A stretch of 64,000 nucleotides of DNA from Escherichia coli (GTDB lineage: Bacteria; Pseudomonadota; Gammaproteobacteria; Enterobacterales; Enterobacteriaceae): the NCBI RefSeq assembly GCF_009931435.1, contig NZ_CP043414.1; one strand, given 5' to 3'. Within the stretch, counting starts at the first letter, position 1; each line of letters begins with the position of its first letter. The position numbers and the translations under genes are program-made. Under the pieces are notes generated by a model. The model made no database searches and was not told where the DNA came from. It saw nothing but the letters and a program-made list of their open reading frames with translations. Of this stretch, positions 35,965 through 60,301 are shown piece after piece.

Positions 35965-36948
35965 TTATGAGTGGTTCAGAAGATGGCTTGCCTCTTGTTT
36001 GATTTGTTGTAGTACGTTACGCACATGATTTATCTGATTAATTGCATCTTCTTTTTCTTTACGTAACCGCGCATCCAGTAAATGATTTTCTGGCAGTGGT
36101 GTTTCACTCATCTGGCGATAAGGGATCCACGGATTATCATCTTCGTCTTCAAAGCGGAACGCCGGAGCATAATAATCAACCTCTTCTTCCAGGCCATACG
36201 CTGTCACCTGCGGTTCTTCATCGCCAAGGCAGATAAGGTGTGTTAATAACTCTTTGAATGGCATATCACCCTGACCTGAAATACAGGCTTTATGGCCCAG
36301 GCCACCTTGTTCTTTAACAATCAAGGCATCTTTGATATGGACCTGGGTAATATGTGGTGCCATCGTTTTTAAAGCGTCTATGGGATGCTCATTCGCATTG
36401 ATCATATTCGCAAAATCAAACAGTAAGGAAAGTGATTTCATCTCACTGTCTTTGACCAGCGACACCAGTTCATGGCTTTTTAAATCTTCATGCTGTTCGA
36501 TCGTAAAGGTCAGGCCGCTGTCCTGATACGTTTCCCGAACATAGGCAATATCGTTAGCAATGATCGATAATACGTCGCGTAAATTACCTTCATAACGCGG
36601 ATAAAAACGCACGGACGATGCCCCGGTTTTCAACGCAATGGCGACGGCTTCGTCAATAGATGCCTTATCTGAAGCGCTGGTTTCAATATGAATATCAAGG
36701 TTCAGATGGCGGGCTTTATCGCCAAAGGCAGAGAGTTCTTTATCTGCCATATTGCCCAAAGAAAAACGTTCGCCATCCAGAACATGAATTTTTACGCCTC
36801 GCAGATTATTTTCACTCGCAATATCAAGTAAATCAGCTGGCAATACTCTTTCCAGCCGCATATTTAAATGAAAAGCGTAGGCATGCAAATAAAGAGGAAG
36901 AGTATCGACACGTTGTAGAATCTTTCTTGCGTTATTTATTGTCACCAT
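35965..36948 (-). CDS. yihM: Sugar phosphate isomerase/epimerase (xylose isomerase-like TIM barrel)
   Basis: ORF ...MVTINNARKILQRVDTLPLYLHAYAFHLNMRLE...; start taken at MVTINN (about 327 aa); ORF track starts 18 codons earlier. Confidence 0.85.
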   Translation of the reverse strand: MVTINNARKILQRVDTLPLYLHAYAFHLNMRLERVLPADLLDIASENNLRGVKIHVLDGERFSLGNMADKELSAFGDKARHLNLDIHIETSASDKASIDEAVAIALKTGASSVRFYPRYEGNLRDVLSIIANDIAYVRETYQDSGLTFTIEQHEDLKSHELVSLVKDSEMKSLSLLFDFANMINANEHPIDALKTMAPHITQVHIKDALIVKEQGGLGHKACISGQGDMPFKELLTHLICLGDEEPQVTAYGLEEEVDYYAPAFRFEDEDDNPWIPYRQMSETPLPENHLLDARLRKEKEDAINQINHVRNVLQQIKQEASHLLNHS

Positions 36949-36955
36949 AAAACAC

Positions 36956-37666
36956 CTACAGATTAATGATGAGATCCACGGCCTCAAATCGCCAATATTC
37001 AATATCTATCTGGACAATATTGCCTTGCTGGTCAGCGCGATGTTTTTCAATTAAGATCGCAGGCATGCCCGCTGAACCGCCAAGAAATTTACTGATATCA
37101 CCCGGCATTCTTACGGGTTTGAAAACCAGTTTTTTTACTACCGTCTCTTTTTGGTAGCATTTTTCCCAGACTGAAGAAAATGAGTGGTTTTCAAGTTGCT
37201 CTATAAAACCTGGGGCAACTTCAGGATTAATATATGTTTCGTGATAGAAAACTTTATGTCCTTCCAGCGCCCCCCAGCCGGTAATGCGATAGAGTTCAGT
37301 TGATGGCGTCACTGCAACCAGTGGCGCGAGCGTCTCGGGAATGTCGCTGGTACGGCTTTTCTCAGTAAAGCCCCAGGAAGGTTCCCGCCCTTGCTCAATT
37401 GCGGCCCGCTGAAAGCTCGCCGACAGCTCCGGACTGTAATTAAATCGCGGCTGAGTCACGAACCACCCTTTACGATCCTTACGGAAAATTTTGGATTCTG
37501 CCTCAAGGTTCAGCAACGCCTGGCGTAACGTCATACGTTTAATGCCCAGCAACTCTCCCAGCTCTCTTTCTGAAGGGAGTTTTCCACCCGGCGTGGTGAT
37601 GCCATCTTTCAACCACCGATCCAGTTTCTCTTTTGCATTTTCTACGGTGGATTGATTCTCCGCCAT
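36956..37666 (-). CDS. yihL: GntR-family transcriptional regulator YihL
   Basis: 236 aa ORF with N-terminal GntR HTH (ERELGELLGIKRMTLRQAL). Confidence 0.9.
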   Translation of the reverse strand: MAENQSTVENAKEKLDRWLKDGITTPGGKLPSERELGELLGIKRMTLRQALLNLEAESKIFRKDRKGWFVTQPRFNYSPELSASFQRAAIEQGREPSWGFTEKSRTSDIPETLAPLVAVTPSTELYRITGWGALEGHKVFYHETYINPEVAPGFIEQLENHSFSSVWEKCYQKETVVKKLVFKPVRMPGDISKFLGGSAGMPAILIEKHRADQQGNIVQIDIEYWRFEAVDLIINL

Positions 37667-37882
37667 TGTTTAATCCTTTTGGTTTAAACCAGATGAGGCA
37701 TCTTACGCTTACGCCAAAAAAGAAAGCAATTAACAGCGTATGACTTTGCAGATAATTGTGACAAAGCTCTCTATTGACGTAACCACAAACTTATAAGGGA
37801 GATACTCGCACTGGTGAGAACTTACGACAGGCAAAAAAAAACCTGCCATCACTGGCAGGTTTTTTATGACTAAAAAACGAAA

Positions 37883-39706
37883 TTAATCGTCTTTCGGTGC
37901 GCGGTTGGCGCGACGACGATCGTTTTCCGTCAGGTGACGTTTACGAATACGGATAGAGGTCGGAGTCACTTCTACCAGTTCGTCATCATCGATGAACTCC
38001 AGAGCTTGTTCCAGAGTCATGCGGATAGGCGGAACCAGAACAACGGCTTCGTCAGTACCGGAAGCACGCATGTTGGTCAGTTTCTTACCGGTCAGACAGT
38101 TTACAGTCAGGTCGTTAGAACGGCTGTGAATACCGATAATCTGACCTTCGTAAACTTCTGCACCGTGACCGAGGAACAGCTTACCGCGATCCTGCAGACC
38201 GAACAGCGCGAACGCGACCGCTTTACCCTGACCGTTAGAGATCAGTACGCCATTCTGACGCTGACCCACTTCGCCCGGACGTACGTCGTCGTAGTGGCTG
38301 AAGGTGGAGTACAGCAGACCAGTACCGGAAGTCATGGTCATGAACTCAGAACGGAAGCCAATCAGACCACGGCTTGGGATCACGTAGTCGAGACGTACGC
38401 GGCCTTTACCGTCTGGATTCATGTTTTTCAGGTCGCCTTTACGTTCGCCCAGCGCCTGCATTACAGAACCCTGATGCTGTTCTTCAACGTCCAGAGTCAC
38501 GTTTTCATACGGCTCTTGTTTACGACCGTCAATTTCACGGAAGATAACTTTCGGACGGGATACCGCCAGTTCGAAACCTTCACGACGCATGTTTTCGATC
38601 AGAACAGACAAGTGCAGTTCGCCACGGCCAGAAACGCGGAACGCATCGGCATCTTCGGTTTCTTCTACGCGCAGCGCAACGTTGTGTACCAGTTCTTTGT
38701 TCAGACGATCCAGGATCTGACGAGACGTTACGAACTTACCTTCTTTACCGCAGAACGGTGAGGTGTTAACGCAGAAGAACATAGAAACGGTCGGCTCATC
38801 AACGGAGAGTGCCGGCAGCGCTTCAACGTTTTGCGTGTCGCAAACGGTGTCAGAAATGTTCAGTTCGCCCAGGCCCGTGATCGCCACGATATCGCCAGCT
38901 TCCGCCAGATCGGTTTCGATACGTTCCAGACCGAGGTGGCCCAGCACTTTACCGACTTTCGCGTTGCGGGTTTTGCCTTCGCTATCGATGATAGTAACTT
39001 GCTGGTTCGGCTTCACTTTACCGCGCTTGATGCGGCCAATGCCGATAACGCCAACATAGCTGTTGTAATCGAGCTGAGAAATCTGCATCTGGAACGGACC
39101 GTCAAGGTCAACGTCCGGCGCAGGAACGTGGTCAACAATTGCCTGATACAGCGGGGTCATGTCTTCTGCCATATCTTCGTGGTCCAGACCCGCGATACCG
39201 TTCAGCGCAGAAGCGTAAACGATCGGGAAGTCCAGCTGCTCGTCAGTCGCGTCGAGGTTAACGAACAGGTCGAATACCTGATCCACAACCCAGTCAGGAC
39301 GCGCGCCAGGGCGGTCAACTTTGTTGATAACAACAATTGGCTTCAGGCCGTAAGCAAACGCTTTTTTGGTTACGAAGCGCGTTTGCGGCATCGGGCCGTC
39401 AAATGCGTCAACCACCAGCAGCACTGAGTCTACCATGGACATTACACGTTCAACTTCACCACCGAAGTCGGCGTGCCCCGGGGTATCAACGATGTTGATA
39501 CGGTAATCATTCCATTTGATAGCGGTGTTTTTCGCGAGGATGGTAATCCCACGCTCTTTCTCCAAATCGTTGGAGTCCATCACGCGCTCTTGGGTTTCGG
39601 CACGAGAGTCGAACGTACCGGATTGTTGGAGCAGCTTGTCTACCAGGGTGGTTTTACCATGGTCTACGTGCGCGATGATGGCGATATTACGCAATTTTTC
39701 GATCAC
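37883..39706 (-). CDS. typA: Ribosome-dependent translational GTPase TypA/BipA
   Basis: 607 aa [29 protein letters not shown]... with EF-G-like GTPase motifs. Confidence 0.95.
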
Positions 39707-39856
39707 AACTTTGCCTCAGGCATTAGAAATAGCGCGTTATTGTACACGGATTAATCGCACTACAAAACAGGATCACAAACATCCTCCGCAAACAAGTATT
39801 GCAGAGTCCCTTTGTGATCGCTTTCACGGAGCATAAAAAGGGTTATCCAAAGGTCA

Positions 39857-39905
39857 TTGCACCAATATGGTGCTTAATGTTTCCATTGAAGCACTATATT
39901 GGTGC
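39857..39905 (+). promoter_or_regulatory. NtrC (NRI) enhancer binding sites upstream of glnA
   Basis: Palindromes TGCACCAATATGGTGC (39857-39872) and GCACTATATTGGTGCA (39890-39905), plus further TGCAC/GTGCA half-sites up to about 39950. Confidence 0.7.
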
Positions 39906-39978
39906 AACATTAACATCGTGGTGCAGCCCTTTTGCACGATGGTGCGCATGATAACGCCTTTTAGGGGCAATTTAAAAG

Positions 39979-39995
39979 TTGGCACAGATTTCGCT
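39979..39995 (+). promoter_or_regulatory. sigma54 promoter glnAp2
   Basis: TTGGCACAGATTTCGCT fits the -24 GG / -12 GC sigma54 consensus (TGGCAC-N5-TTGCW-like), about 85 nt upstream of the glnA start. Confidence 0.75.
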
Positions 39996-40078
39996 TTATC
40001 TTTTTTACGGCGACACGGCCAAAATAATTGCAGATTTCGTTACCACGACGACCATGACCAATCCAGGAGAGTTAAAGT

Positions 40079-41488
40079 ATGTCCGCTGAACACGTACTGA
40101 CGATGCTGAACGAGCACGAAGTGAAGTTTGTTGATTTGCGCTTCACCGACACCAAAGGTAAAGAACAGCACGTCACTATCCCTGCTCATCAGGTGAATGC
40201 TGAATTCTTCGAAGAAGGCAAAATGTTTGACGGCTCCTCGATTGGCGGCTGGAAAGGCATTAACGAATCCGACATGGTGCTGATGCCAGACGCATCCACC
40301 GCAGTGATTGACCCGTTCTTCGCGGACTCTACCCTGATTATCCGTTGCGATATCCTTGAACCAGGCACCCTGCAAGGCTATGACCGTGACCCGCGTTCCA
40401 TCGCGAAGCGCGCTGAAGATTACCTGCGTTCTACTGGCATTGCCGACACCGTACTGTTCGGGCCAGAACCTGAATTCTTCCTGTTCGATGACATCCGTTT
40501 CGGCGCGTCTATCTCCGGTTCTCATGTTGCCATCGACGATATCGAAGGTGCATGGAACTCCTCCACCAAATATGAAGGTGGTAACAAAGGTCACCGTCCG
40601 GCAGTGAAAGGCGGTTACTTCCCGGTTCCGCCGGTAGACTCTGCTCAGGATATCCGTTCTGAAATGTGTCTGGTGATGGAACAGATGGGTCTGGTTGTTG
40701 AAGCCCATCACCACGAAGTAGCGACTGCTGGTCAGAACGAAGTGGCTACCCGCTTCAATACCATGACCAAAAAAGCTGACGAAATTCAGATCTACAAATA
40801 TGTTGTGCACAACGTTGCACACCGCTTCGGTAAAACCGCGACCTTTATGCCAAAACCGATGTTCGGTGATAACGGCTCCGGTATGCACTGCCACATGTCA
40901 CTGTCTAAAAACGGCGTCAACCTGTTCGCTGGCGACAAATATGCAGGTCTGTCTGAGCAGGCGTTGTACTACATTGGCGGCGTAATCAAACACGCTAAAG
41001 CAATTAACGCCCTGGCAAACCCGACCACCAACTCTTACAAGCGTCTGGTCCCGGGCTACGAAGCACCGGTAATGCTGGCTTACTCTGCACGCAACCGTTC
41101 TGCGTCTATCCGTATTCCAGTGGTTTCTTCTCCGAAAGCACGTCGTATCGAAGTCCGTTTCCCGGACCCAGCGGCTAACCCGTACCTGTGCTTTGCTGCC
41201 CTGCTGATGGCCGGTCTTGATGGTATCAAGAACAAGATCCACCCAGGCGAAGCCATGGACAAAAACCTGTATGACCTGCCGCCAGAAGAAGCGAAAGAGA
41301 TCCCACAGGTTGCAGGCTCTCTGGAAGAAGCACTGAACGAACTGGATCTGGACCGCGAGTTCCTGAAAGCCGGTGGCGTGTTCACTGACGAAGCCATTGA
41401 TGCGTACATCGCTCTGCGTCGCGAAGAAAATGACCGCGTGCGTATGACTCCGCATCCGGTAGAGTTTGAGCTGTACTACAGCGTCTAA
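40079..41488 (+). CDS. glnA: Glutamine synthetase
   Basis: 469 aa [35 protein letters not shown]... recognised as GlnA. Confidence 0.97.
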
Positions 41489-41549
41489 TAGTTGAAGTTG
41501 TACTACCCGGTGCAAAGAAGGCCGGGATTTAGTTGCCGTGGAAACTTTC

Positions 41550-41576
41550 AGCCCATCTCTGCATGGGCTTTTTTCT
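41550..41576 (+). terminator. Intrinsic terminator in glnA 3' UTR
   Basis: Hairpin AGCCCAT-CTCTGC-ATGGGCT followed by TTTTTTCT; an additional hairpin CCCGGTGCAAAGAAGGCCGGG at 41506-41526. Confidence 0.6.
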
Positions 41577-41662
41577 CCGTAACTTCTTTGATGCTTCGCG
41601 CTTTTTATCCGTAAAAAGCTATAATGCACTAAAATGGTGCAACCTGTTCAGGAGACTGCTTT

Positions 41663-42712
41663 ATGGCAACAGGCACGCAGCCCGATGCTGGGCAGATCCT
41701 CAACTCACTGATTAACAGTATTTTGTTAATTGATGACAACCTGGCAATCCATTACGCCAACCCCGCCGCGCAACAACTACTCGCCCAAAGCTCCCGCAAA
41801 TTGTTTGGTACGCCGTTACCGGAACTGTTGAGCTACTTCTCATTAAATATCGAGCTGATGCAAGAAAGTCTGGAGGCGGGGCAAGGTTTTACCGATAACG
41901 AAGTGACGCTGGTGATCGACGGTCGCTCGCATATCCTTTCTGTGACGGCCCAGCGTATGCCGGACGGCATGATCCTGCTGGAGATGGCACCGATGGATAA
42001 CCAGCGCCGCTTAAGTCAGGAACAGCTACAGCACGCCCAGCAGGTTGCTGCCCGTGATTTAGTGCGCGGCCTGGCGCATGAGATTAAAAATCCGCTTGGC
42101 GGTTTACGTGGCGCGGCCCAGTTGCTCAGCAAAGCATTACCTGACCCGTCACTGCTGGAATATACCAAAGTGATTATTGAACAGGCGGATCGGTTGCGAA
42201 ATCTGGTCGACCGTCTGTTGGGGCCGCAACTGCCCGGTACGCGCGTTACCGAAAGTATTCACAAAGTGGCTGAACGCGTGGTGACGCTGGTGTCGATGGA
42301 ACTGCCGGACAACGTGCGGTTGATTCGTGATTACGACCCCAGCCTGCCGGAACTGGCGCACGACCCGGATCAAATTGAACAGGTATTGCTGAATATTGTG
42401 CGCAATGCGCTACAGGCACTGGGGCCGGAAGGTGGTGAAATCATTCTGCGTACCCGCACCGCGTTTCAACTGACCTTACACGGCGAGCGCTATCGGCTGG
42501 CGGCGCGGATTGATGTGGAAGATAACGGGCCAGGCATTCCGCCTCATTTGCAGGATACGCTGTTTTACCCGATGGTCAGCGGCCGCGAAGGTGGCACCGG
42601 GCTTGGCTTATCCATCGCCCGTAATTTGATTGATCAGCATTCAGGCAAAATTGAATTTACCAGTTGGCCAGGTCATACCGAGTTCTCGGTTTACCTGCCT
42701 ATCAGGAAATAA
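41663..42712 (+). CDS. glnL: Nitrogen regulation sensor histidine kinase NtrB (NRII)
   Basis: 349 aa ORF with H-box HEIKNPLGG. Confidence 0.95.
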
Positions 42713-42723
42713 AGGTGACGTTT

Positions 42724-44133
42724 ATGCAACGAGGGATAGTCTGGGTAGTCGATGACGATAGTTCCATCCGTTGGGTGCTTGAACGTGCGCTCGCTGGAGC
42801 AGGTTTAACCTGTACGACGTTTGAGAACGGCGCGGAAGTGCTGGAGGCGCTGGCGAGCAAAACACCGGATGTACTGCTTTCAGATATCCGTATGCCGGGA
42901 ATGGACGGGCTTGCGCTGCTCAAGCAGATTAAACAGCGCCATCCGATGCTTCCGGTCATCATTATGACCGCACATTCCGATCTGGATGCTGCCGTCAGCG
43001 CCTATCAACAAGGGGCGTTTGATTATCTGCCCAAACCGTTTGATATCGACGAAGCCGTGGCGCTGGTTGAGCGCGCCATCAGCCATTATCAGGAACAGCA
43101 GCAACCGCGTAATGTTCAGCTTAACGGCCCGACGACCGATATCATCGGCGAAGCGCCAGCCATGCAGGACGTGTTCCGGATTATCGGTCGGCTTTCACGT
43201 TCTTCTATTAGCGTGCTGATTAACGGCGAATCCGGCACCGGTAAAGAACTGGTCGCTCATGCCCTGCATCGCCACAGTCCTCGAGCCAAAGCGCCGTTTA
43301 TCGCGCTGAATATGGCGGCTATCCCGAAGGATTTGATCGAATCAGAACTGTTCGGTCACGAGAAAGGCGCGTTTACCGGCGCGAATACCATTCGTCAGGG
43401 GCGTTTTGAACAGGCCGATGGCGGCACGTTATTCCTCGATGAAATTGGCGATATGCCGCTCGATGTACAGACGCGTTTGCTGCGCGTGCTGGCAGACGGT
43501 CAGTTTTATCGCGTTGGCGGCTATGCGCCGGTGAAAGTGGATGTGCGGATTATCGCTGCGACCCATCAGAATCTCGAACAGCGGGTACAGGAAGGCAAGT
43601 TCCGTGAGGATTTGTTCCACCGCCTGAACGTTATCCGCGTTCATCTGCCGCCGCTGCGTGAGCGTCGGGAAGATATTCCCCGTCTGGCACGCCATTTTTT
43701 ACAGGTTGCCGCGCGCGAACTGGGCGTAGAAGCGAAGTTGCTGCATCCGGAAACCGAAGCCGCGCTGACGCGTCTGGCATGGCCGGGTAACGTGCGCCAG
43801 CTGGAAAACACCTGCCGTTGGTTAACGGTGATGGCCGCCGGGCAGGAAGTGTTGATTCAGGATTTGCCTGGCGAACTGTTTGAATCAACGGTTGCGGAGA
43901 GTACTCCGCAAATGCAACCGGACAGTTGGGCAACGCTGTTAGCGCAGTGGGCAGACAGAGCGCTGCGTTCCGGTCATCAAAATTTGCTTTCCGAAGCGCA
44001 GCCTGAGCTTGAGCGGACGTTACTGACGACCGCGTTGCGACATACGCAGGGGCATAAACAGGAAGCTGCGCGGCTACTTGGCTGGGGGCGTAACACCCTG
44101 ACGCGGAAGTTAAAAGAGCTGGGGATGGAGTGA
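42724..44133 (+). CDS. glnG: Nitrogen regulation response regulator NtrC (NRI)
   Basis: Start at [19 protein letters not shown] (469 aa); receiver domain, sigma54-activator AAA+ domain (GESGTGKE), C-terminal HTH. Confidence 0.95.
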
Positions 44134-44244
44134 TTCACAGCTTGTGTGTAAAGATTGATTATTGAGCGCAAATTGCTGGTATTTTGCGCTTTACTGTTCC
44201 GATAAGTTCAGTATGATCTTGCCCGGAAAACGGGGAGAGTCATT

Positions 44245-44355
44245 ATGCTGGAATCAATAATTAATCTGGTATCGAGTGGCGCAGTTGACAGCCACACACC
44301 GCAAACTGCCGTTGCTGCCGTGCTGTGTGCTGCGATGATTGGGCTGTTTAGCTGA
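44245..44355 (+). CDS. yshB: Small membrane protein YshB (36 aa)
   Basis: Short ORF MLESIINLVSSGAVDSHTPQTAVAAVLCAAMIGLFS preceded by GGGGAGAG; below the ORF-track size cut-off; location between glnG and hemN as I recall for yshB. Confidence 0.75.
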   Translation: MLESIINLVSSGAVDSHTPQTAVAAVLCAAMIGLFS

Positions 44356-44364
44356 AGCTCGTTG

Positions 44365-44500
44365 TTTATGCCGGATGCGGAGAAAGTCGTAGGCCTGATA
44401 AGACGCGACCAGCGTCGCATCAGGCATCATGCTCAGATGCCGGATGCCGGATGCCGGATGCCGGATGCCGGATGCCGGATGCAGCGTAAACGCCTTATCC
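44365..44500. repeat. REP/BIME cluster containing a 5-copy GCCGGAT heptanucleotide tandem repeat
   Basis: REP-like palindromes (GCCTGATAAGACGCGACCAGCGTCGCATCAGGC; GCGTAAACGCCTTATCCGGCCTAC) flank five complete GCCGGAT units at 44439-44473. Confidence 0.6.
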
Positions 44501-44618
44501 GGCCTACAAAAGCAATAATTTCAACAGGTTTTCTTAACCAGCGCATCAGGCAATCTTGTTCTCAGCACATTGATGGCGCTTTCGTTTTCTACTTTGTAAA
44601 CGAAGCGCCATTCACCAT

Positions 44619-45992
44619 TTAAATCACTCGTGAGAACTGCTGCATCCGCGCTTTCTGGCGCAGATAGGTATCAAAGCACATGCAAATGTTGCGGATCAGC
44701 AGGCGACCTTTCGCCGTTACCTGAATCCCCTTCTCATCCACATCCACCAGCCCATCTTTTGCTAACGGGGCAAGCAGCTTGAGATCTTCTGCAAAGTAGT
44801 CAGCGAAGTGCAAATCCCACTGTTGCTCAATGGGGGCATAATCCAGACGGAAGTTGCAGATGAGCGACTTAATCACATCGCGACGAATACAGTCATCACG
44901 CGTTAGCGCAATACCACGCCACAGCGCATTGCCTTGTTCATCCACTTGCTGATAGTACTGCTTCAACTCTTTCTGATTCTGCGCGTAGCAGTCGCCAATC
45001 ATGCTAATGGCTGAAACGCCCATCCCCAGCAGATCGGTATCGCCCTGAGTGGTGTAGCCCTGGAAGTTACGATGAAGCACGCCTTCACGTTGGGCCACCG
45101 CCAGCTCATCATCCGGGCGAGCAAAGTGATCCATACCGATAAACTGATAGCCCGATTGTGTCAGGAAGGCGATGGTTTCCTGCAGGATATCGAGTTTTTG
45201 CTGCGGACTCGGCAGGTCAGCATCTTTGATTTTACGCTGAGCAGCAAAAATGGTCGGCAAATGCGCGTAGTTAAAGACACTCAGGCGATCGGGGTTAAGT
45301 TCCGCCACGCGTTTCAGGGTAAAGGCGAAACTCTCCGGCGTCTGTTTCGGCAGGCCGTAAATCAGGTCGATGTTGGTGGAAGTAAAGCCAATCTCACGCG
45401 CATGGTTAAGCAGTGCAAAGATGAACTCTTCATCCTGCTCGCGGTTAACCAGACGTTGCACTTCTTTGTTGAAGTCCTGCACGCCCATGCTCAGGCGATT
45501 AAAGCCTTCGGCGCGTAAATGATCGAGTACATCCAGTTCGATTTCCCGCGGATCGACTTCGATCGAAATCTCCGCATCGGCATTGAACTGGAAGTTTTCG
45601 CGCAGCAACTTCATCAGTCGGCTGATTTGCGCTTTGTTCAGATACGTCGGCGTACCACCGCCCCAGTGCAATTGGCTGACGTGACGCCCGGCGAACAGCG
45701 GTGCACGATGGACGATTTCTTGCTCCAGCGCGTCCAGATACTGATCGGCCTTGTGCTGCTGGCGAGTAACAATCTTATTGCAACCGCAGAAGTAACAAAG
45801 CTTATGGCAGAACGGGATATGTACGTAGAGAGATAATGGACGCTCAGGATAGCGCGCCACGGCTTGTAAAAACGCCTGTTCGCCGAAGTCTTCTGAAAAC
45901 TCCAGCGCGGTCGGGTACGAGGTGTATCGTGGCCCGGAATAGTTATATTTCTGGATCAGGGCCAGATCCCAGTCGATTTGCTGTACAGACAT
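44619..45992 (-). CDS. hemN: Oxygen-independent coproporphyrinogen III oxidase (radical SAM)
   Basis: Start at MSVQQIDWDLALIQKYNYSGPRYTSYPTALEF (457 aa); radical-SAM CxxxCxxC (CHKLCYFCGC). Confidence 0.95.
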   Translation of the reverse strand: MSVQQIDWDLALIQKYNYSGPRYTSYPTALEFSEDFGEQAFLQAVARYPERPLSLYVHIPFCHKLCYFCGCNKIVTRQQHKADQYLDALEQEIVHRAPLFAGRHVSQLHWGGGTPTYLNKAQISRLMKLLRENFQFNADAEISIEVDPREIELDVLDHLRAEGFNRLSMGVQDFNKEVQRLVNREQDEEFIFALLNHAREIGFTSTNIDLIYGLPKQTPESFAFTLKRVAELNPDRLSVFNYAHLPTIFAAQRKIKDADLPSPQQKLDILQETIAFLTQSGYQFIGMDHFARPDDELAVAQREGVLHRNFQGYTTQGDTDLLGMGVSAISMIGDCYAQNQKELKQYYQQVDEQGNALWRGIALTRDDCIRRDVIKSLICNFRLDYAPIEQQWDLHFADYFAEDLKLLAPLAKDGLVDVDEKGIQVTAKGRLLIRNICMCFDTYLRQKARMQQFSRVI

Positions 45993-46180
45993 GCTCACTC
46001 CTTCCGATGGCGTCTCTGGCGGCTACGGCGTACCGGCGAATGCCCGTTTCGGGTCATCAGCCGGTTGCGCAGCCACTTTTGTCGCCGCGACAACCGCTGT
46101 AGTTTAACGAATAACCACACCAGATAACATATAACCGGAAGGGTTATCAGCAGAACGGGAAGGCCCACGGCGGCAATCCG

Positions 46181-46690
46181 TTAGTTGCCCCGCAGCAGAC
46201 GCATCATGTCTTCTTGCTTCTCGTCTTCTTCCTCTTCTTCGTCATCGTCATAAGAGAGGCCGAGTTTCTGCATCAACTCATCAATACGATCCAGTTTGGC
46301 ATCCACCCAGGATTGCTCTTCGGCGCTCAGGGTTTCGCCTGCCTCCAGACGTTCCAGCAGCGCATCCAGACGCTCATCCGTTTCCAGTAACTCCAACTCC
46401 GCCTGCGGTGAAAGCATAGGTTTCTCACTCTTCGGTTTGTGCTGTTTGGTGACTTTTTCAGTCACGCCCAATGGAATAGGGGTTTTACTGCCAATACGTG
46501 GATCTTTCGGTGCGTTCTGGCCTTTGCTGCCTGACGTGGTGTTACCGCCCGCTGCGCGGCTGCCCGGCGCATGACCACGACGTTTTTTCTGACGCTTACG
46601 GTCACGAGCTTCCTGATCCAGCTCCTCGCGTGTTTTTCGACGCGCTTTTGCATGACCTTTGCTGCGTGAGTTTGAAGATGATGGTTTCAT
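46181..46690 (-). CDS. yihI: Der GTPase-activating protein YihI
   Basis: 169 aa from [19 protein letters not shown]...; very basic N-terminus, acidic C-terminus ([10 protein letters not shown]). The ORF-track start at 46753 would run into the CsrC terminator and is rejected. Confidence 0.9.
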
Positions 46691-46758
46691 AATGGTTCGT
46701 CTTTTAGCCGTTTTATTCAGTATAGATTTGCGGCGGAATCTAACAGAAAGCAAGCAAA

Positions 46759-47001
46759 GAAAAAAGGCGACAGATTACTCTGTCGCCTTTTTTCCTGACT
46801 CATAACCCTTAACGGGTCTTACAATCCCTGCAGGCCGCCAACACACCCTGTTTTTCCATTAGCCGGAACAATCCGTGTTGATTCCATTTCCGTTTAATTA
46901 CGTCTCCGGACGTTTGTCTTCCTGACAATCCTCTGTCTTCGCCTCCTGGCGCTCCTGACCCTCATCCTGAGTCATTGTTCCTGTTAGCGTCCTCGCTCTA
47001 T
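46759..47001 (-). ncRNA. csrC: CsrC small RNA (CsrA-sequestering)
   Basis: Minus-strand sequence reads ATAGAGCGAGGACGCTAACAGGAACAATGACTCAGGATGAGGGTCAGGAGCGCCAGGAGG..., with many GGA motifs, ending in hairpin GGCGACAGAGTAATCTGTCGCC plus U-tract; matches CsrC as I remember it. Ends +/- a few nt. Confidence 0.85.
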
Positions 47002-47271
47002 GGGTGCTACTTTACGCCTTTGCTTTAAACAAACAATCAACCGCCATCAGTATTTGCACATTTTCAGAGTTTTATATAAAAGCAATTAACTGATTTATAT
47101 AGCTTATTTGACATGCATCGCAGAATTTTCTCTGCTATTTCGCATAAAGACTATCGGCAATGTCTCACAAAGCGTATGGCTTTTACTTACAACGCTCACG
47201 CCGAAAAATCCGCCTTTTATTATGGTTCAGGTATAATCGCCGCAAAGCTTTGACTGACGGAGACGACCGCT

Positions 47272-47904
47272 TTGACTAATTTGAATTATCAACAGACGCA
47301 TTTTGTGATGAGTGCGCCTGATATTCGCCACCTACCTTCCGATACCGGAATTGAAGTGGCTTTTGCAGGCCGTTCCAACGCAGGTAAATCCAGCGCGCTG
47401 AACACGCTGACTAACCAGAAAAGCCTGGCGCGGACCTCAAAAACCCCAGGGCGCACCCAGCTTATCAACCTGTTTGAAGTGGCTGACGGCAAGCGTCTGG
47501 TTGACCTGCCCGGCTATGGCTACGCGGAAGTCCCGGAAGAGATGAAGCGCAAATGGCAGCGCGCGCTCGGCGAGTACCTCGAAAAACGTCAGAGCCTGCA
47601 AGGCCTGGTGGTACTCATGGATATTCGCCATCCGCTGAAAGATTTGGATCAGCAGATGATTGAGTGGGCGGTAGACAGCAATATCGCCGTGCTGGTGCTG
47701 CTGACCAAAGCGGACAAACTGGCAAGCGGCGCACGTAAAGCGCAATTGAATATGGTGCGTGAAGCGGTGCTGGCGTTTAACGGTGATGTGCAGGTTGAAA
47801 CGTTCTCTTCGCTGAAGAAGCAAGGCGTGGACAAGCTGCGGCAGAAACTGGATACCTGGTTTAGCGAGATGCAGCCTGTAGAAGAAACGCAGGACGGCGA
47901 ATAA
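47272..47904 (+). CDS. engB: Ribosome biogenesis GTPase EngB (YihA)
   Basis: 210 aa ORF starting at TTG ([23 protein letters not shown]...); G1 motif GRSNAGKSS. Confidence 0.9.
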
Positions 47905-47924
47905 TTTTCTTGCCTTAATGCTTG

Positions 47925-47975
47925 TGCCGGATGTGGCGTATCCGGCTCTGGCATAGGCCTGAGAAGCATCAGGCA
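47925..47975. repeat. REP-like palindromic element downstream of engB
   Basis: GCCGGATGTGGCGTATCCGGC ... GCCTGAGAAGCATCAGGC inverted repeats. Confidence 0.5.
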
Positions 47976-47998
47976 TTACGATCTTTTCTTTCGCCCAA

Positions 47999-48107
47999 TA
48001 AAAAACGCCCCAGTCATTACTGACTGGGGCGGCTAAAATATTCAGCCAAATCCGATTACGTGAAGTAAAAGGTCTGAAAGATAGAACATCTTACCTCTGT
48101 ACCCTAC
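47999..48107 (-). ncRNA. spf: Spot 42 small RNA
   Basis: Minus-strand sequence GTAGGGTACAGAGGTAAGATGTTCTATCTTTCAGACCTTTTACTTCACGTAATCGGATTTGGCTGAATATTTTAGCCGCCCCAGTCAGTAATGACTGGGGCGTTTTTTA recognised as Spot 42; lies just downstream of polA. Confidence 0.9.
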
Positions 48108-48254
48108 GCGACTAACTTTACTCTTTTTTGTTCAGTTCAGAAAGCATTTTTTGTAATTTTTTTTCAGTTGTTGCATAGGAATTTCTAATAGCCATCACAA
48201 AACGTGACAGCTTATGTTGCTTACTTACGAAAAAAGGGCATGTTCAGGCGAATC

Positions 48255-51041
48255 TTAGTGCGCCTGATCCCAGTTTTCGCCACTCCCCACTTCCACCAGC
48301 AGCGGCACATCCAGACGGGTACAGTTTTCCATCAGTTGATGAATCTGTTTCGCGACGGCATCGACATCATCTTTATGAACTTCAAATACCAGTTCATCGT
48401 GTACCTGCATAATCATACGCACACGCGGTTGCTCAGCTTGTAACCACGCATCAACGGCAATCATCGCTCGTTTGATAATGTCGGCGGCGGTTCCCTGCAT
48501 TGGCGCGTTAATGGCTGCACGTTCAGCCGCTGCACGACGAGCACCATTGCTGGATTTGATATCCGGCAGATACAGACGGCGTCCGTCCAGCGTTTCAACG
48601 TAGCCCTGTTCTTTCGCCTGCGCACGGGTGCGCTCCATATACTCCAGCACGCCTGGGTAGCGTTCGAAGTAAAGGTCCATGTACTTCTGCGCTTCTTTAC
48701 GTGGAATGTTCAATTGTCGCGCCAGACCGAAAGCACTCATGCCATAAATCAGACCAAAGTTGATCGCTTTCGCGCTACGACGTTGCTCGCTGGTGACGGT
48801 TTCCAGTGGCAAACCAAACACTTCTGCCGCCGTAGCCCGGTGGATATCTTTTCCTTCCGCGAATGCGGTCAGCAAGCCTTTGTCACGCGAGAGATGCGCC
48901 ATAATGCGCAGTTCAATCTGCGAGTAGTCCGCCGAGACAATCACATAATCCTCTGGCGCAATAAACGCCTGGCGGATACGACGACCTTCTTCGTTACGCA
49001 CCGGAATGTTTTGCAGGTTAGGATCGGTTGACGATAAACGTCCCGTAGCGGTTACTGCCTGGTGATAAGAGGTATGTACACGCCCGGTTTTCGGGTTGAT
49101 CATCAGCGGCAGCTTGTCGGTGTAGGTCGATTTCAGCTTCGCCAGACCACGATACTCCAGAATCACTTTTGGCAACGGATAGTCCAGCGCCAGTTCTTCC
49201 AGTACCTCTTCCGACGTTGACGGCGCACCACCCGGCGTTTTCTTCAGCGGTTTAATGCCCTGTTTTTCAAACAGAATGGTTTGTAACTGCTTGGTGGAAG
49301 AAAGGTTAAATTCTTCACCTGCAATTTCATGCGCTTTCTTTTCCAGCTCAGCCAGACGTAGAGTGAGCTCTTCAGAATGATTATGAAGCACTTTCGGATC
49401 GATCTTCACACCGTTACGTTCAATGCGTGAAAGCACCGGCACCAGCGGCATTTCGATGTTCTCGAAGACGTTCAACGGCCCTTTGTGTTTTTGCAGATCC
49501 GGCCACATTTTCAGATGCAACTGCAAGGTGACATCTGCATCTTCGGCGGCGTAACGTCCGGCCTCTTCGAGGGCAATCTGGTTAAAGGTCAGTTGATTTT
49601 TGCCTTTACCCGCAATCTCTTCAAAAGTGATGGTTTTGTGCTTCAACCAACGTTCCGCGAGGCTGTCCATATCGTGACGCCCGGCAACGCTATTGAGAAT
49701 GTAGGACTCCAGCATGGTATCAAACGCAATCCCACGCAGCTCAATGCCGTAGTTCGCCAGAATACCGCGATCGTATTTCAGGTTTTGCCCGACCTTCAGC
49801 GCCTTTTCATCTTCCAGCAGCGGTTTTAGCAACTCGAGTGCACGCTCGCGAGAGATTTGATCGGGCGCATCAAGATAATCATGAGCAACCGGAATATATG
49901 CCGCTACGCCTGGCTCGATAGCAAAAGAAAGCCCGACCAGGTTAGCAGAGATGTTATCAAGGCTGTCGGTTTCGGTATCAAATGCAAATACCGGCGATTT
50001 TTCCAGCTTCGCAATCCACGCTTTCAGTGTTTCTTCATCAAGGATGGTGACGTAGTTGTCATAAGAAATCACCGTTGCCGTCACTTCTGGCGCTTCGTCT
50101 GCAACACTGGTTTCCTGCGGCTTCGCGGCTGGTTTTGCCCCTTTGGCCTGTAACCATTTGCCCGCTTCGACATCAGCAGTCCAGCGTTTGAACTCATACT
50201 TTTTGAACAGCCCCAACAACTCTTCCGCCGCCGGTTGCTGCACTTCTAGTTGTTCACAGGTAAGCTCCAGTTCAACGTCGGTTTTAATCGTCGCCAGCTG
50301 GTAAGAGAGATAAGCCACTTCTTTGTTTTGCTCGAGCTTCGCCGCCATTGTTTTCGCGCCACGGAAGCTCAACCCAGCAATTTTTTCTGGCTCGGCATAC
50401 AGCGTATCCAGTCCGCCAAGACCTTGTAGCAATGCTTGCGCGGTTTTTTCACCGACGCCCGGTACGCCAGGGATGTTATCAGAGGAGTCACCCATCAGCG
50501 CCAGGAAGTCGATGATCAGTTCTGGCGGCACGCCGTACTTATTCACCACCTCTTCCGGTCCGAGGATGGTATTCGTCATGGTATTGATAAGCGTAATATT
50601 TGGCGTCACCAGCTGCGCCATATCTTTATCGCCTGTGCTTATCAGCACCGGACGCCCGGCTTTTTCGGCTTCGCGCGCCAGAGTACCGATAACGTCGTCC
50701 GCTTCTACGCCAGAAACCGCCAGCAGCGGCAGTCCCATCGCTTTAACCATCGCGTGCAGAGGTTCGATTTGTGCTCGCAGATCGTCCGGCATTGGCGGAC
50801 GATGTGATTTGTAATGTTCAAACAGTTCATCACGAAAGGTTTTTCCCTTGGCGTCAAAGACCACCGCTGCATGCGTCGGTTTATATTGCATGATTAGACT
50901 GCGCAGCATGTTGAGGACACCATACATCGCACCGGTCGGCTCGCCTGCGCTGTTAGTCAGCGGGGGAAACGCGTGATAGGCGCGATAAAGATAAGATGAA
51001 CCATCTACAAGGATAAGTGGATTTTGGGGGATCTGAACCAT
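48255..51041 (-). CDS. polA: DNA polymerase I
   Basis: 928 aa [44 protein letters not shown]... recognised as PolA. Confidence 0.97.
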
Positions 51042-51154
51042 AATGTCCGTGCCTGTTTATCAGATTATGGGTAAAGGATGCCACAGACAGGATGAAAACA
51101 TGAGTTTTTCACCGCTTTTCGTGAAAATCTTTTGTAGATCTTCTGGATCGCTCG

Positions 51155-51163
51155 CAAATCGTC
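51155..51163. promoter_or_regulatory. DnaA box in the polA upstream region
   Basis: TGTGGATAA (reverse complement TTATCCACA, perfect DnaA-box consensus) about 115 nt upstream of the polA start; a second near-consensus box TGTGGATAG at 51306-51314. Confidence 0.5.
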
Positions 51164-51404
51164 ATGTGGATAACTTTGTGCATAAATTATTTACATCGCT
51201 TTTAATTTATTATCATGCTTTTTACAGCATGATGTTTGTCTTTGCTTTTCATACAGTTAAATATAAAGCCATCCCTAATAATTGTGATAATGGGATTTTT
51301 TCTAATGTGGATAGATATGAATTATTTTTCTCCTTAAGGATCATCCGTTATTTGGGGCGTTTTCTGCTAAAATCGGCGCCTTGCGCTTCTTTAGCGCACT
51401 GTCT

Positions 51405-52337
51405 ATGGCTAACCTTTTGAATAAATTCATTATGACGAGAATACTCGCTGCGATAACCCTTTTGCTGAGTATCGTATTGACCATTTTGGTCACTATTTTT
51501 TGCTCCGTCCCGATCATCATTGCCGGGATTGTAAAACTATTGCTACCTGTGCCAGTCATTTGGCGAAAGGTTTCGCGTTTTTGTGATTTTATGATGTATT
51601 GCTGGTGTGAAAGTCTGGCGGTATTACTGCATCTGAACCCACACCTGCAATGGGAAGTTCACGGGCTGGAAGGGTTAAGTAAGAAGAACTGGTATCTGCT
51701 TATTTGTAACCACCGTAGTTGGGCAGATATTGTCGTACTGTGCGTGCTGTTTCGTAAGCACATTCCGATGAATAAATATTTCCTCAAGCAGCAGCTTGCC
51801 TGGGTGCCATTTCTTGGCCTGGCATGCTGGGCGCTGGATATGCCGTTTATGAAGCGTTATTCCCGCGCTTATTTATTACGTCATCCGGAGAGACGTGGTA
51901 AAGATGTTGAAACCACACGGCGTTCTTGTGAAAAGTTTCGCCTGCACCCCACCACCATTGTCAATTTCGTTGAAGGCTCCCGTTTCACGCAAGAAAAACA
52001 TCAGCAAACCCACTCCACTTTTCAAAACTTGTTGCCACCAAAGGCGGCAGGCATTGCGATGGCGCTAAATGTACTGGGTAAACAATTCGATAAACTGCTT
52101 AATGTTACGCTGTGTTATCCCGACAATAACCGTCAGCCGTTCTTCGATATGTTAAGCGGTAAACTGACGCGAATTGTCGTACATGTGGATTTACAGCCTA
52201 TTGCCGATGAGTTACATGGCGACTACATCAATGACAAAAGCTTTAAGCGCCATTTTCAGCAATGGCTGAACTCACTGTGGCAGGAAAAAGACCGACTTCT
52301 GACGTCGTTGATGTCATCACAGCGTCAGAATAAGTAA
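51405..52337 (+). CDS. yihG: Acyltransferase-family inner membrane protein YihG
   Basis: Start at [14 protein letters not shown] (310 aa); acyltransferase HxxxxD-like motif NHRSWADI. Confidence 0.9.
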
Positions 52338-52377
52338 GTTTTACTCGCCTCTGAATGAGCAGAGGCGAGTGAGTATT

Positions 52378-53808
52378 TTAATGAACAAAACGTCCGGCAC
52401 GAGACATAAATTCTTCTTCGCTCATTTCCTGTCCGTTAAAAACAACTTTACCCGGTGTATAACGCAGTTGCAGCGAGGCGGTATTGTTGTCAATCGTGAT
52501 TAACTGAAACATCTGACCTAATGTCATCATCCCGCTGATTTGTTTATCAGCCTGCTTTTGCGCTTTTTCAGCATCCATTCCTTCAGATAAATTAAGCTGT
52601 TTTGCGGTTTCTGTGACGACATTAAGCGGTAACTTCACATCAAAAATGAGCGATTTAATATCTTTGTTTGTGGATGATGAGGATTTGGCTGGGTCGGCAA
52701 TACTGATATCCAGATTGGCATTTAGTTCGCCGAGTGCGTTCTTCCATCTTACCGGTTGTTTAATGGTCGGCTCACTTTTTTGTAATAACGGTAAATACTC
52801 TTTGAACAATGCAGCATTCACTTCTTGCAGAGCAACTTCATCGTTTGCTAACTCAGGGTGTGCAGCAAGCTGCTTCTGCATCGCAATGTTATACTGAATG
52901 ATAAATTGGCGCACCGCTGAGGGATCAATAGATTCCGCAATCAAGGACCACTCACCACTACCGAGTTGCTGATTTCCTTTTGTTAACTTATCAAGTTCGT
53001 AGGTCAGATTGACATTGATATAATCTTTGTCTTTAACGCGATCCAGCCTGGTTTTTGCAACGAAAGCATCGATTTGGGCAACGTCTTCTCCCTGATTGAT
53101 AATGTTAATCTGATTGAATTTCGACTCGCTTTCGCCAACCGGAAATTTCTTTTCTTCTAATCGCGTTAGAGAATCAATGGTAAAACTTTTCGCCGTTACT
53201 TTATTCAATGGCGATAATTCCAGAACAAGATCTTCGACTTTGCCTTCAATATCCAGATTAGACAATGAACTACCATCACCATTAAAAGTAAACTGGCCCT
53301 CACCAAAAGAAAACTTTCCATATTTTGCAGGGGCAACATCTAATGTCGTGGAGAATGAGCCACCAAACGCGAATCGCAATGTCGCTTCCACGGGCGATTT
53401 ATTTTTTGCGGCGATAAATAGCGGTTGTGTCAGTTCATTATTCACTAAGTTCACTTTTGCCGCTGCCAGTGCGGGGATGACATTACCACGCATTAACATT
53501 GTGATGGGCAACGGACCGTGCTCAACATCCACATCAAATGCAACTTTCTGGCCTGGCTTGATATTGAGATCGGGTGCACCGTTATCAAATGTCATTTGCA
53601 TTTGAAAATGAGAATTAAAAAAGCCTTTGTCAAAGTTTTTATAACTTAACGTCATATCGTAGGCATGTTCACCTTTCTCTTTAGCATCGTTAAAATCTTT
53701 AATGAACTTTTCGACACCAGGCTGAATTTGCGTACCTGTGTACCATGTGCCACCACCCCAGATTACGGCTAACGCAACAATAACACCTGTAGCTGACTTA
53801 CGTATCAT
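52378..53808 (-). CDS. yihF: DUF945-family protein YihF
   Basis: Start taken at MIRKSATGVIVALAVIWGGG (476 aa); ORF track extends 14 codons further upstream. Confidence 0.85.
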   Translation of the reverse strand: MIRKSATGVIVALAVIWGGGTWYTGTQIQPGVEKFIKDFNDAKEKGEHAYDMTLSYKNFDKGFFNSHFQMQMTFDNGAPDLNIKPGQKVAFDVDVEHGPLPITMLMRGNVIPALAAAKVNLVNNELTQPLFIAAKNKSPVEATLRFAFGGSFSTTLDVAPAKYGKFSFGEGQFTFNGDGSSLSNLDIEGKVEDLVLELSPLNKVTAKSFTIDSLTRLEEKKFPVGESESKFNQINIINQGEDVAQIDAFVAKTRLDRVKDKDYINVNLTYELDKLTKGNQQLGSGEWSLIAESIDPSAVRQFIIQYNIAMQKQLAAHPELANDEVALQEVNAALFKEYLPLLQKSEPTIKQPVRWKNALGELNANLDISIADPAKSSSSTNKDIKSLIFDVKLPLNVVTETAKQLNLSEGMDAEKAQKQADKQISGMMTLGQMFQLITIDNNTASLQLRYTPGKVVFNGQEMSEEEFMSRAGRFVH

Positions 53809-53962
53809 ATAAATATTCCCTGATAAAACAGCAAAACTTTGAATATCCACTTATGCTGAAATAATGTCCAGCGGCAGGACGCATTATCAGAATGTATTTA
53901 TATTTATTAAATAATAAAAAAAGCCCGTGAATATTCACGGGCTTTATGTAATTTACATTGAA

Positions 53963-54589: not shown

Positions 54590-54605
54590 GATCTACTCTC
54601 TCCGA

Positions 54606-57396: not shown

Positions 57397-60301
<2,905 letters not shown>

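What the first reader, a model, noticed from the sequence alone, without database searches (positions are those of the whole stretch)
44437..44475. Heptanucleotide tandem repeat (GCCGGAT x5) inside a REP cluster between yshB and hemN
Five perfect tandem copies of a REP-derived heptamer form a microsatellite-like tract flanked by classical REP palindromes. Such tracts are prone to slipped-strand copy-number change and could alter the structure or spacing of the surrounding REP/BIME element, or serve as a strain-typing VNTR.
Basis: seen in the sequence. Interest (0 to 1): 0.4.

Follow-up and report, generated by a model that had tools for sequence, protein, structure and literature searches.

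The report
Hypervariable 7-base repeat on a REP element
A 7-base unit copied from the start of a common E. coli palindromic repeat (REP) has multiplied to six tandem copies between two genes, and its copy number changes (1, 2, 4, 5, 6, 8) between otherwise almost identical strains, so it is a genuine but ordinary, probably harmless, fast-mutating microsatellite found in only a few rare lineages.

Summary
The tract is real but longer than reported. It runs 44436..44482, with period 7, 6.7 perfect copies and six full GCCGGAT units, not five. It lies between the convergent genes yshB and hemN, in the head-to-head linker of two inverted REP palindromes, and its last unit is the 5' arm of the right-hand REP.

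Of 5,426 complete E. coli genomes, two carry 2 copies. In every other sampled or top-ranked record the locus has 1 copy or a different REP architecture. Exact-protein look-ups found the window's own rare E. coli clone. Five contigs of 11-15 kb, four of them with 0-1 SNP against the window, carry 4, 4, 5, 5 and 6 copies, and three of them differ from it only by a 7- or 14-nt gap. A second clone has 2 versus 4 copies (1 SNP in 10.7 kb). A third haplotype has 8 versus 1.

GCCTGAT alleles, including K-12, were always 1 copy.

A second REP-head array turned up between tkt and ypfG: a 14-nt unit in 1, 3, 4 or 5 copies.

No promoter, credible ORF or RNA family overlaps the tract, so it is most likely neutral. 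It is a known kind of feature and of low to moderate interest.

The parts
44245..44355 (+). yshB (36-aa small membrane protein), upstream convergent gene
   Evidence: ORF; the homologous locus is annotated yshB in RefSeq genomes; Pfam PF28018 YshB on related contigs.
44368..44385 (+). Isolated REP-head remnant (ATGCCGGATGCGGAGAAA)
   Evidence: Direct-repeat family D2 with the real REP head at 44472-44489.
44389..44428 (-). Inverted REP (GCCTGAT-type head; hairpin arms 44393-44406 / 44412-44425). It carries the T-type proto-repeat GATGCCTGATGC, which was 1 copy in every sequence examined
   Evidence: Inverted repeats I1 and I3; REP head and tail regex hits; 1 copy in all printed spacer sequences.
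44429..44435 (.). Centre of the head-to-head linker (ATGCTCA), the dyad centre of the REP pair
   Evidence: Sequence; folds place it at the apex when the two REPs pair.
44436..44482 (+). Heptanucleotide tandem repeat: 6.7 perfect copies of GATGCCG, equal to six full GCCGGAT units at 44439-44480
   Evidence: TRF; pattern search against shuffles; alleles of 1, 2, 4, 5, 6 and 8 units in other genomes.
44474..44507 (+). Direct Y-type REP (GCCGGATGCAGCGTAAACGCCTTATCCGGCCTAC). Its 5' arm is the last repeat unit
   Evidence: Inverted repeat I4; REP head and tail hits; DNA hairpin -9.3 kcal/mol, z -3.4.
44542..44552 (-). Degenerate third REP remnant (CGCATCAGGCA). It is a full inverted REP in other E. 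coli
   Evidence: Direct repeat D3; a full REP (GCAGGCCTGATAAGCGTAGCGCATCAGGC) at this position in L003, L004 and L006.
44573..44611 (-). Stem-loop just after the hemN stop codon (likely hemN terminator), lying between hemN and the REP cluster
   Evidence: Inverted repeat I7; conserved in all loci compared. The terminator function is inferred; the simple consensus scan did not call it.
44619..45992 (-). hemN (oxygen-independent coproporphyrinogen III oxidase), downstream convergent gene
   Evidence: ORF; its 457-aa translation matches called HemN proteins exactly; RefSeq annotation at the homologous locus.

Best explanation
The tract is a hypermutable microsatellite (VNTR) born from the 5' arm ('head') of a REP element. 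It is most likely selectively neutral. The ancestral sequence, still present in related strains, is CAGATGCCGGATGCAGCG. Here the REP head and the two bases before it already form 1.7 copies of a 7-nt period (GATGC..GATGC). Replication slippage between those 5-nt repeats made the first duplication, and further slippage adds or removes whole units (inferred mechanism). Two features probably raise the rate, and both are inferred. The GCCGGAT allele gives the REP a perfect, more stable stem that can pause the polymerase. Once several units exist, any of them can pair with the REP 3' arm (ATCCGGC), with the head of the opposing inverted REP, or with each other through CCGG, so the pairing register is ambiguous. 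What is shown is that copy number changes in unit steps far faster than point substitution, in at least two independent clones. What it changes physically is the length of the spacer between the two REP heads (13 nt in the 1-copy form, 48 nt here). It lies downstream of both flanking genes, so no effect on expression is expected.
For: Perfect 6.7-copy array. The 1-copy allele has a yshB-hemN spacer otherwise identical to the window's in strain 2013C-4282. Clone of the window: L150 has 6 copies and is 100% identical over 11,664 bp; L148 has 5 copies, 0 SNPs and one 7-nt gap over 14,787 bp; L149 has 4 copies, 1 SNP and one 14-nt gap over 11,781 bp; L162 has 4 copies and 0 SNPs over 11,571 bp; L161 has 5 copies. 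Second clone: L157 (4 copies) against MFDS1022581 (2 copies) shows 1 SNP and one 14-nt gap over 10,707 bp. Third haplotype: L140 (8 copies) against L141 (1 copy) shows 8 differences in 2.7 kb, while both differ from the window by 31-33. The sequence immediately 3' of the tract differs between haplotypes (GCAGCG against GCGGCG), which argues for independent expansions. All GCCTGAT (T-allele) loci examined have 1 copy, including the opposing REP head within the expanded strains. The REP hairpin is -9.3 kcal/mol for the G allele and -6.3 for the K-12 T allele. In the 6-copy fold the distal unit pairs with the REP 3' arm in the minimum-energy structure, while the centroid keeps the canonical hairpin, so registers are ambiguous. 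The whole REP pair folds with z about -4, with the tract at the apex. The same kind of array exists at a second REP (tkt-ypfG, 14-nt unit TGCCGGATGCTGAT, with 1, 3, 4 or 5 units in different strains). No promoter-like or terminator-like site and no Rfam family overlaps the tract.
Against: The slippage mechanism itself is inferred from the pattern of alleles and was not observed. The tract alone is not significantly more structured than shuffled sequence (z -1.3 to -1.6), so hairpin-driven instability is unproven. The T allele has an equally perfect 12-nt proto-repeat, so why only the G allele expands is not settled. The sample of expanded alleles is small (11 sequences counting the window, on three haplotypes). 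Neutrality is argued only from position; effects on glnALG-yshB mRNA 3' ends or on gyrase/IHF binding were not testable. Copy numbers come mostly from draft assemblies, although a 47-nt tract is well within read length.
Confidence: 0.8

Rival explanations
1. The array is produced or remodelled by a REP-specific enzymatic process, namely cleavage and rejoining by the REP-associated tyrosine transposase RAYT/TnpA-REP, rather than by simple polymerase slippage.
For: Arrays sit exactly on REP heads at two unrelated loci. Nunvar et al. argue that BIME length variation is unlikely to result solely from recombination or slippage and propose RAYT as the driver (PMC2817692).
Against: The unit is 7 nt, a fraction of a REP, not a REP or REP pair. 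Changes of +/-1 or 2 units between near-identical strains are the classic slippage signature. From my own knowledge, E. coli TnpA-REP is reported to cut at a CT dinucleotide; the heptamer has no CT. The same heptamer forms arrays in many taxa with no REP context (2 of 122 tracts have ATCCGGC within 45 nt).
Confidence: 0.07
2. The tract is a functional, selected switch. Copy number tunes the 3' end processing or stability of the glnALG-yshB transcript, or the spacing-dependent binding of gyrase or IHF to the BIME, giving heritable but reversible variation.
For: Hypermutability in unit steps resembles contingency loci. Each unit adds about 4.3 kcal/mol of predicted RNA ensemble stability and about 2 kcal/mol for DNA. 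From my own knowledge, REPs are known to stabilise upstream mRNA; BIME-2 elements are reported to bind gyrase strongly and the BIME-1 inter-REP sequence to bind IHF (PMC2817692).
Against: The tract lies downstream of both convergent genes. hemN has its own stem-loop between its stop codon and the tract. There is no promoter-like site and no Rfam RNA. The only ORF through it is translated REP/repeat sequence. All but two of 5,426 complete genomes manage with 1 copy or a different layout.
Confidence: 0.08
3. The tract is an assembly or sequencing artefact of the source genome.
For: No complete RefSeq E. coli genome has more than 2 copies, and the metagenome scans found nothing.
Against: Independent assemblies from NCBI and Logan carry 2, 4, 5, 6 and 8 perfect units at the same position with identical flanks. 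The tract (47 nt) is shorter than a sequencing read. The metagenome collection also lacked the 1-copy allele, so its silence is uninformative.
Confidence: 0.01

Closest known systems
Bacterial VNTR / microsatellite loci used in MLVA typing (short units that change by replication slippage)
   Same: Perfect head-to-tail short units; whole-unit gains and losses between otherwise near-identical isolates; intergenic position; variation faster than SNPs.
   Different: No description was found in the searchable literature. It is polymorphic only in a few rare lineages, since most E. coli have 1 copy. The unit is derived from a REP arm rather than from unique sequence.
E. coli REP / BIME elements and their known interstrain polymorphism
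   Same: The flanks are classical REPs in inverted orientation between convergent genes. The locus shows the known kind of BIME polymorphism, with several architectures that differ in the number of REPs.
   Different: Known BIME variation concerns whole REPs or REP pairs, deletions between REPs, and IS insertion. Here a 7-nt sub-REP fragment (the head) is amplified in tandem. At tkt-ypfG a 14-nt head-plus-spacer unit is amplified.
Phase-variable contingency loci (simple sequence repeats in promoters or ORFs, for example in Neisseria, Haemophilus and Campylobacter)
   Same: A short unit whose length is not a multiple of three, with high-frequency reversible unit changes.
   Different: The tract is not in a promoter or a credible ORF, so there is nothing to switch. 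It resembles these loci in how it mutates, but it is not a member of the class.
tkt(tktB)-ypfG REP-head array in E. coli
   Same: A tandem array that abuts the 5' arm of a REP, with the last unit serving as the REP head. It shares the GCCGGATGC core and is copy-number polymorphic among strains (1, 3, 4 or 5 units).
   Different: The unit is 14 nt (head plus a TGAT-T spacer) and is 95% rather than 100% perfect. It is widespread: K-12 has 1 unit plus the REP head, and 134 genomes have the long form. It is accompanied by a 19-nt duplication of the REP tail.

Membership tests
REP (repetitive extragenic palindrome / palindromic unit) of E. coli | An imperfect palindrome of about 35 nt with the conserved head GCC[G/T]GATG and the tail CTTATC[C/A]GGCCTAC | tested here: met
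   Both flanking elements match: 44389..44428 (-) and 44474..44507 (+) ([I3, I4], 63).
REP (repetitive extragenic palindrome / palindromic unit) of E. coli | Extragenic, typically at the 3' ends of genes | tested here: met
   It lies between the stop codons of the convergent genes yshB and hemN.
REP (repetitive extragenic palindrome / palindromic unit) of E. coli | Many dispersed copies per genome | tested here: met
   A query based on the Y-REP consensus hit the 40-piece-per-record limit in 5,030 records. There are 5 REP heads in this 64-kb window.
BIME (bacterial interspersed mosaic element) | Two or more REPs in alternating orientation separated by short linkers | tested here: met
   Two REPs lie head-to-head with 88% complementary outer arms (I1). 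Together they fold as one long hairpin. The linker motif type (S/L) was not assigned.
BIME (bacterial interspersed mosaic element) | Binding of IHF, DNA gyrase or DNA polymerase I | not testable with these tools
   This needs biochemical assays.
VNTR / microsatellite | Head-to-tail copies of a short unit | tested here: met
   TRF: period 7, 6.7 copies, 100% match.
VNTR / microsatellite | Copy number varies between isolates in whole units | tested here: met
   1, 2, 4, 5, 6 and 8 units with identical flanks.
VNTR / microsatellite | Length changes outpace point substitution | tested here: met
   0-1 SNP over 10.7-14.8 kb between contigs that differ by 1 or 2 units, in two clones.
VNTR / microsatellite | Length heterogeneity within a culture | not testable with these tools
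   No read-level data are available.
Phase-variable contingency locus | The repeat lies in a promoter or coding sequence, so unit changes switch a gene on or off | tested here: not met
   The tract is 3' of both genes. There is no promoter-like site in or next to it. The only ORF through it (37 codons, minus strand) is translated REP/repeat sequence.
RAYT-mobilised REP/REPIN proliferation | The unit that multiplies is a whole REP or an inverted REP pair | tested here: not met
   The unit is 7 nt, one fifth of a REP.
RAYT-mobilised REP/REPIN proliferation | Dependence on a rayT (yafM) gene | not tested
   I did not look for a rayT gene in the window; the source genome is not available and a genetic test is needed.
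Published E. coli MLVA/VNTR loci | The locus or repeat string is described in the literature | tested here: inconclusive
   No paper in the searchable library contains the repeat string or describes a VNTR near hemN in E. coli. Subscription literature is not covered.

The most novel reading that the evidence does not exclude
REP heads may be general nurseries of hypermutable microsatellites. Their built-in 7-nt periodicity (TGCCGGATGC), together with a perfect-stem (GCCGGAT) hairpin or the head-to-head quasi-palindrome, would specifically drive expansion. The resulting arrays would tune BIME function (mRNA 3'-end stability, or gyrase/IHF spacing) in a heritable, reversible way. That would be an unrecognised class of 3'-intergenic contingency element in Enterobacteria.
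Probability: 0.12. Interest if true: 0.5.

Novelty: new member of a known kind. Interest (0 to 1): 0.3.

Why it matters
In practice, this is a very fast marker that can separate isolates of a rare E. coli clone which are indistinguishable by SNPs over more than 10 kb. It could help in outbreak-scale typing of those lineages, but it is useless species-wide. Conceptually, it is a clean natural example of how a microsatellite is born from a dispersed repeat. A single G/T difference in the REP head coincides with no expansion in the T-allele genomes examined and repeated expansion on three G-allele haplotypes. A second REP-head array at tkt-ypfG shows this is not a one-off. For annotation and variant calling, such tracts are a source of length differences in REP/BIME regions that should not be mistaken for assembly errors.

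Tried and rejected
Only 2 of 122 tracts have a REP-like partner nearby.

2. Two metagenome scans were run: left flank plus at least 2.7 copies, and the 1.7-copy allele plus right flank as a positive control. Both were empty. The collection does not sample this allele, so the negative result means nothing.

3. HemN and TypA exact-protein look-ups were too widely shared to find the clone. GlnG, PolA and YihF worked.

4. I considered a coding or phase-variation reading. The ORFs across the tract (86 aa on the plus strand, 37 aa on the minus strand) are translated REP/repeat sequence with no support, so I rejected it.

5. Rfam at gathering threshold and the promoter/terminator scan found nothing at the tract.

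6. Self-structure of the tract as the driver of instability: the z-score is only -1.3 to -1.6, so it is not compelling alone.

7. My per-copy pairing probabilities in the long context were dominated by REP-REP pairing and did not give a clean picture of pairing registers. I use only the energies from that call.

8. Literature searches for the repeat strings, for REP plus VNTR, and for hemN plus VNTR found no prior description.

Full report
**Observation**

The sequence at 44430-44490 reads ...CTCA GATGCCG x6 GATGC AGCG.... Tandem Repeats Finder reports one array at 44436..44482: period 7, 6.7 copies, 100% matches, no indels, score 94. It is by far the strongest tandem repeat in the 64-kb window. 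The 14-mer GCCGGATGCCGGAT occurs five times against 0.03 expected from dinucleotide shuffles, so the tract is not a chance feature.

**Anatomy**

The tract lies in the 263-nt spacer between two convergent genes, yshB (44245..44355, +) and hemN (44619..45992, -). Both assignments come from RefSeq annotation of the homologous locus and from exact-protein and Pfam matches.

The spacer contains, in order:
- a REP-head remnant (44368..44385);
- an inverted REP (44389..44428, hairpin arms I3);
- a 7-nt centre (ATGCTCA);
- the tract;
- a direct Y-type REP (44474..44507, arms I4) whose 5' arm is the last repeat unit;
- a degenerate REP remnant (44542..44552);
- a stem-loop next to the hemN stop codon (44573..44611).

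The two REPs face head-to-head and their outer arms are 88% complementary (I1). As single strands the whole pair folds as one long hairpin (DNA, -33.4 and -33.5 kcal/mol, z about -4) with the tract at its apex. No Rfam family and no promoter-like or terminator-like site overlaps the tract. The only ORFs through it are translated REP/repeat sequence.

**Comparison with complete E. coli genomes**

Against 5,426 complete RefSeq E. coli genomes, all of the top 60 matches to the locus are exactly 35 bp (five units) shorter than the window. Strain 2013C-4282 has a yshB-hemN spacer identical to the window's except that it has one unit: CAGATGCCGGATGCAGCG. K-12 has GCCTGAT at that position.

I then used a synthetic query with 12.7 units, designed so that genomes with more copies rank first. 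No genome covered at least 80% of it. Only two genomes (MFDS1022581 and MFDS1019527) stood out, with a span 7 nt longer, and the MFDS1022581 sequence confirms two units.

The locus itself comes in several BIME architectures across E. coli, with spacers of 228, 232, 137 and 189 nt. This is the known kind of BIME polymorphism.

**The window's lineage**

Over 20 kb the window is only 98.9% identical to its nearest complete genome and 97.4% identical to typical E. coli. Its PolA sequence is labelled Escherichia coli by its sources and has been seen on only 17 contigs. It is therefore a rare E. coli clone that is absent from the complete-genome set.

**Close relatives**

Exact-protein look-ups with the window's GlnG, PolA and YihF found that clone and its neighbours. 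Copy numbers and distances from the window are:

| Locus | Assembly or run | Copies | Comparison with the window |
|---|---|---|---|
| L150 | GCA_054240625.1 | 6 | 100% identical over 11,664 bp |
| L148 | GCA_035607835.1 | 5 | 0 SNPs, one 7-nt gap, 14,787 bp |
| L149 | GCA_036246705.1 | 4 | 1 SNP, one 14-nt gap, 11,781 bp |
| L162 | Logan SRR25824453 | 4 | 0 SNPs, one 14-nt gap, 11,571 bp |
| L161 | GCA_016664965.1 | 5 | noisier assembly (7 mismatches, 11 gap openings) |

Within one clone the tract is therefore 4, 4, 5, 5, 6 or 6 units, while four of the five contigs show 0-1 other differences from the window.

A second clone behaves the same way. L157 (4 units) differs from MFDS1022581 (2 units) by 1 SNP and one 14-nt gap over 10,707 bp.

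On a third haplotype, L140 has 8 units and its near neighbour L141 has 1. They differ at 8 positions in 2.7 kb, and both are 31-33 differences from the window.

The base three positions after the tract differs between haplotypes (GCAGCG against GCGGCG), which argues that expansion arose more than once. Every GCCTGAT (T-allele) locus examined has one unit (K-12, L130, L139, L142). So does the T-type head of the opposing REP in the expanded strains themselves.

**Generality**

A query made of eight units fused to the consensus Y-REP found, in 134 genomes, a different locus between tkt and ypfG. There a 14-nt unit, TGCCGGATGCTGAT, is repeated 6.7 times (95% match) directly against the 5' arm of a REP. 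The REP tail is also duplicated, as 19 nt x2. That locus occurs in length classes stepping by 14 nt. Sequences confirm 1 unit (K-12 BW25113 and 2009C-3133) and 3, 4 or 5 units in other strains. Tandem amplification of the REP head is therefore recurrent in E. coli.

By contrast, (GCCGGAT)n tracts in unrelated bacteria are not associated with REP-like palindromes.

**Mechanism**

Shown: whole-unit gains and losses that outpace point substitution, in at least two clones and on three haplotypes.

Inferred: replication slippage. The ancestral GATGCCGGATGC is already 1.7 copies of the period, that is 5-nt direct repeats 7 nt apart. The REP consensus head TGCCGGATGC carries the same periodicity, which gives slippage a foothold. 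Slippage between short repeats through polymerase pausing and dissociation is established knowledge (work cited in PMC2884548).

The G allele forms a stronger REP hairpin than the K-12 T allele (-9.3 against -6.3 kcal/mol). In the 6-copy form the minimum-energy fold pairs the most distal unit with the REP 3' arm while the centroid keeps the canonical hairpin, so several registers compete. In the full BIME fold, the head of the opposing REP pairs with the last units and the remaining units self-pair through CCGG. Each added unit lowers the ensemble energy by about 2 kcal/mol for DNA and about 4.3 kcal/mol for RNA.

These observations fit hairpin-assisted slippage but do not prove it. The tract alone is not significantly structured (z -1.3 to -1.6), and the T allele has an equally good proto-repeat.

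**Function**

The tract lies 3' of both genes, and hemN has its own stem-loop between its stop codon and the tract. Nearly all E. coli carry one unit or a different layout. The best reading is a neutral by-product. An effect on glnALG-yshB mRNA 3' ends, or on protein binding to the BIME, cannot be excluded with these tools.

**Comparison with known systems**

The tract works like a classical VNTR/microsatellite and passes every feature of that class that could be tested. Its flanks are bona fide REPs forming a BIME. It mutates like a contingency locus but fails the defining feature of one, which is a position in a promoter or ORF. It is not a RAYT/REPIN-type duplication, because the unit is a fifth of a REP.

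I found no prior description of this tract or of the tkt-ypfG array in the searchable literature. Interstrain BIME length variation and slippage at short repeats are well known (PMC2817692, PMC2884548).

**Verdict**

The feature is a new member of a known kind. It is useful as a very fast marker within a few rare clones and as a tidy example of microsatellite birth from a dispersed repeat, but it is not surprising to a specialist. Interest 0.3.

Noticed in passing
L143 568..708 (E. coli CP53, NZ_CP033096.1 about 1302540-1302627); also L144-L147: A second REP-head tandem array lies between tkt (tktB) and ypfG. The 14-nt unit TGCCGGATGCTGAT is present as 1 unit (K-12 BW25113 and 2009C-3133) or 3, 4 or 5 units in different strains. 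A 19-nt duplication of the REP tail (GCGTCTTATCCGGCCTACA x2) is present in CP53, 2018-01-1CC, 162.2 and K-12 but absent in 2009C-3133.
   Followed up: partly
window 44356..44618 compared with L001-L008 and L129-L160: The yshB-hemN spacer exists in several BIME architectures across E. coli (228, 232, 137 and 189 nt). One of them is a clean deletion between two CGCATCAGGC repeats (L005, strain SF-173).
   Followed up: partly
L135 (GCA_032837815.1), yshB-hemN spacer: A contig encoding the identical HemN has a completely different spacer with no REPs. It contains a CCCTC/GAGGG-rich palindromic element (…CCCTCACCCTAACCCTCTCCCCAATGGGGCGAGGGGAC…), possibly a BoxC-like repeat.
   Followed up: no
L137 (GCA_033546895.1, CP137855.1): Here hemN is followed by a glycosyltransferase and a polysaccharide deacetylase gene instead of yshB-glnG, which indicates a rearrangement or insertion at this junction in a 4.39-Mb genome.
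   Followed up: no
L060-L080 (Acidobacteriota MAG CSMAG_2587); L026-L031 and L052-L059 (Bacteroidales MAGs): (GCCGGAT)n tracts of 3 to 14 units occur across the 120 loci returned. In single MAGs they appear on many contigs, often at contig ends. That suggests either a genome-specific dispersed repeat that breaks assemblies or an artefact.
   Followed up: no
window 46748..47001 (-), 47999..48117 (-), 39788..39895 (-), 10551..10609 (+), 57186..62289 (-): Rfam finds CsrC, Spot 42, the ES222 sRNA, a SECIS_3 element and a complete rRNA operon with two tRNAs and StyR-44. The gene order in 36-56 kb matches that annotated in reference E. coli genomes (typA, glnALG, yshB, hemN, yihI, yihA, polA, yihG, yihF, dsbA).
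   Followed up: no
window 36000..56000: The window is only 98.9% identical to its nearest complete RefSeq E. coli genome and 97.4% identical to typical strains. Its exact PolA is on only 17 contigs in public data, so the source is a rare E. coli lineage that is poorly represented among finished genomes.
   Followed up: partly
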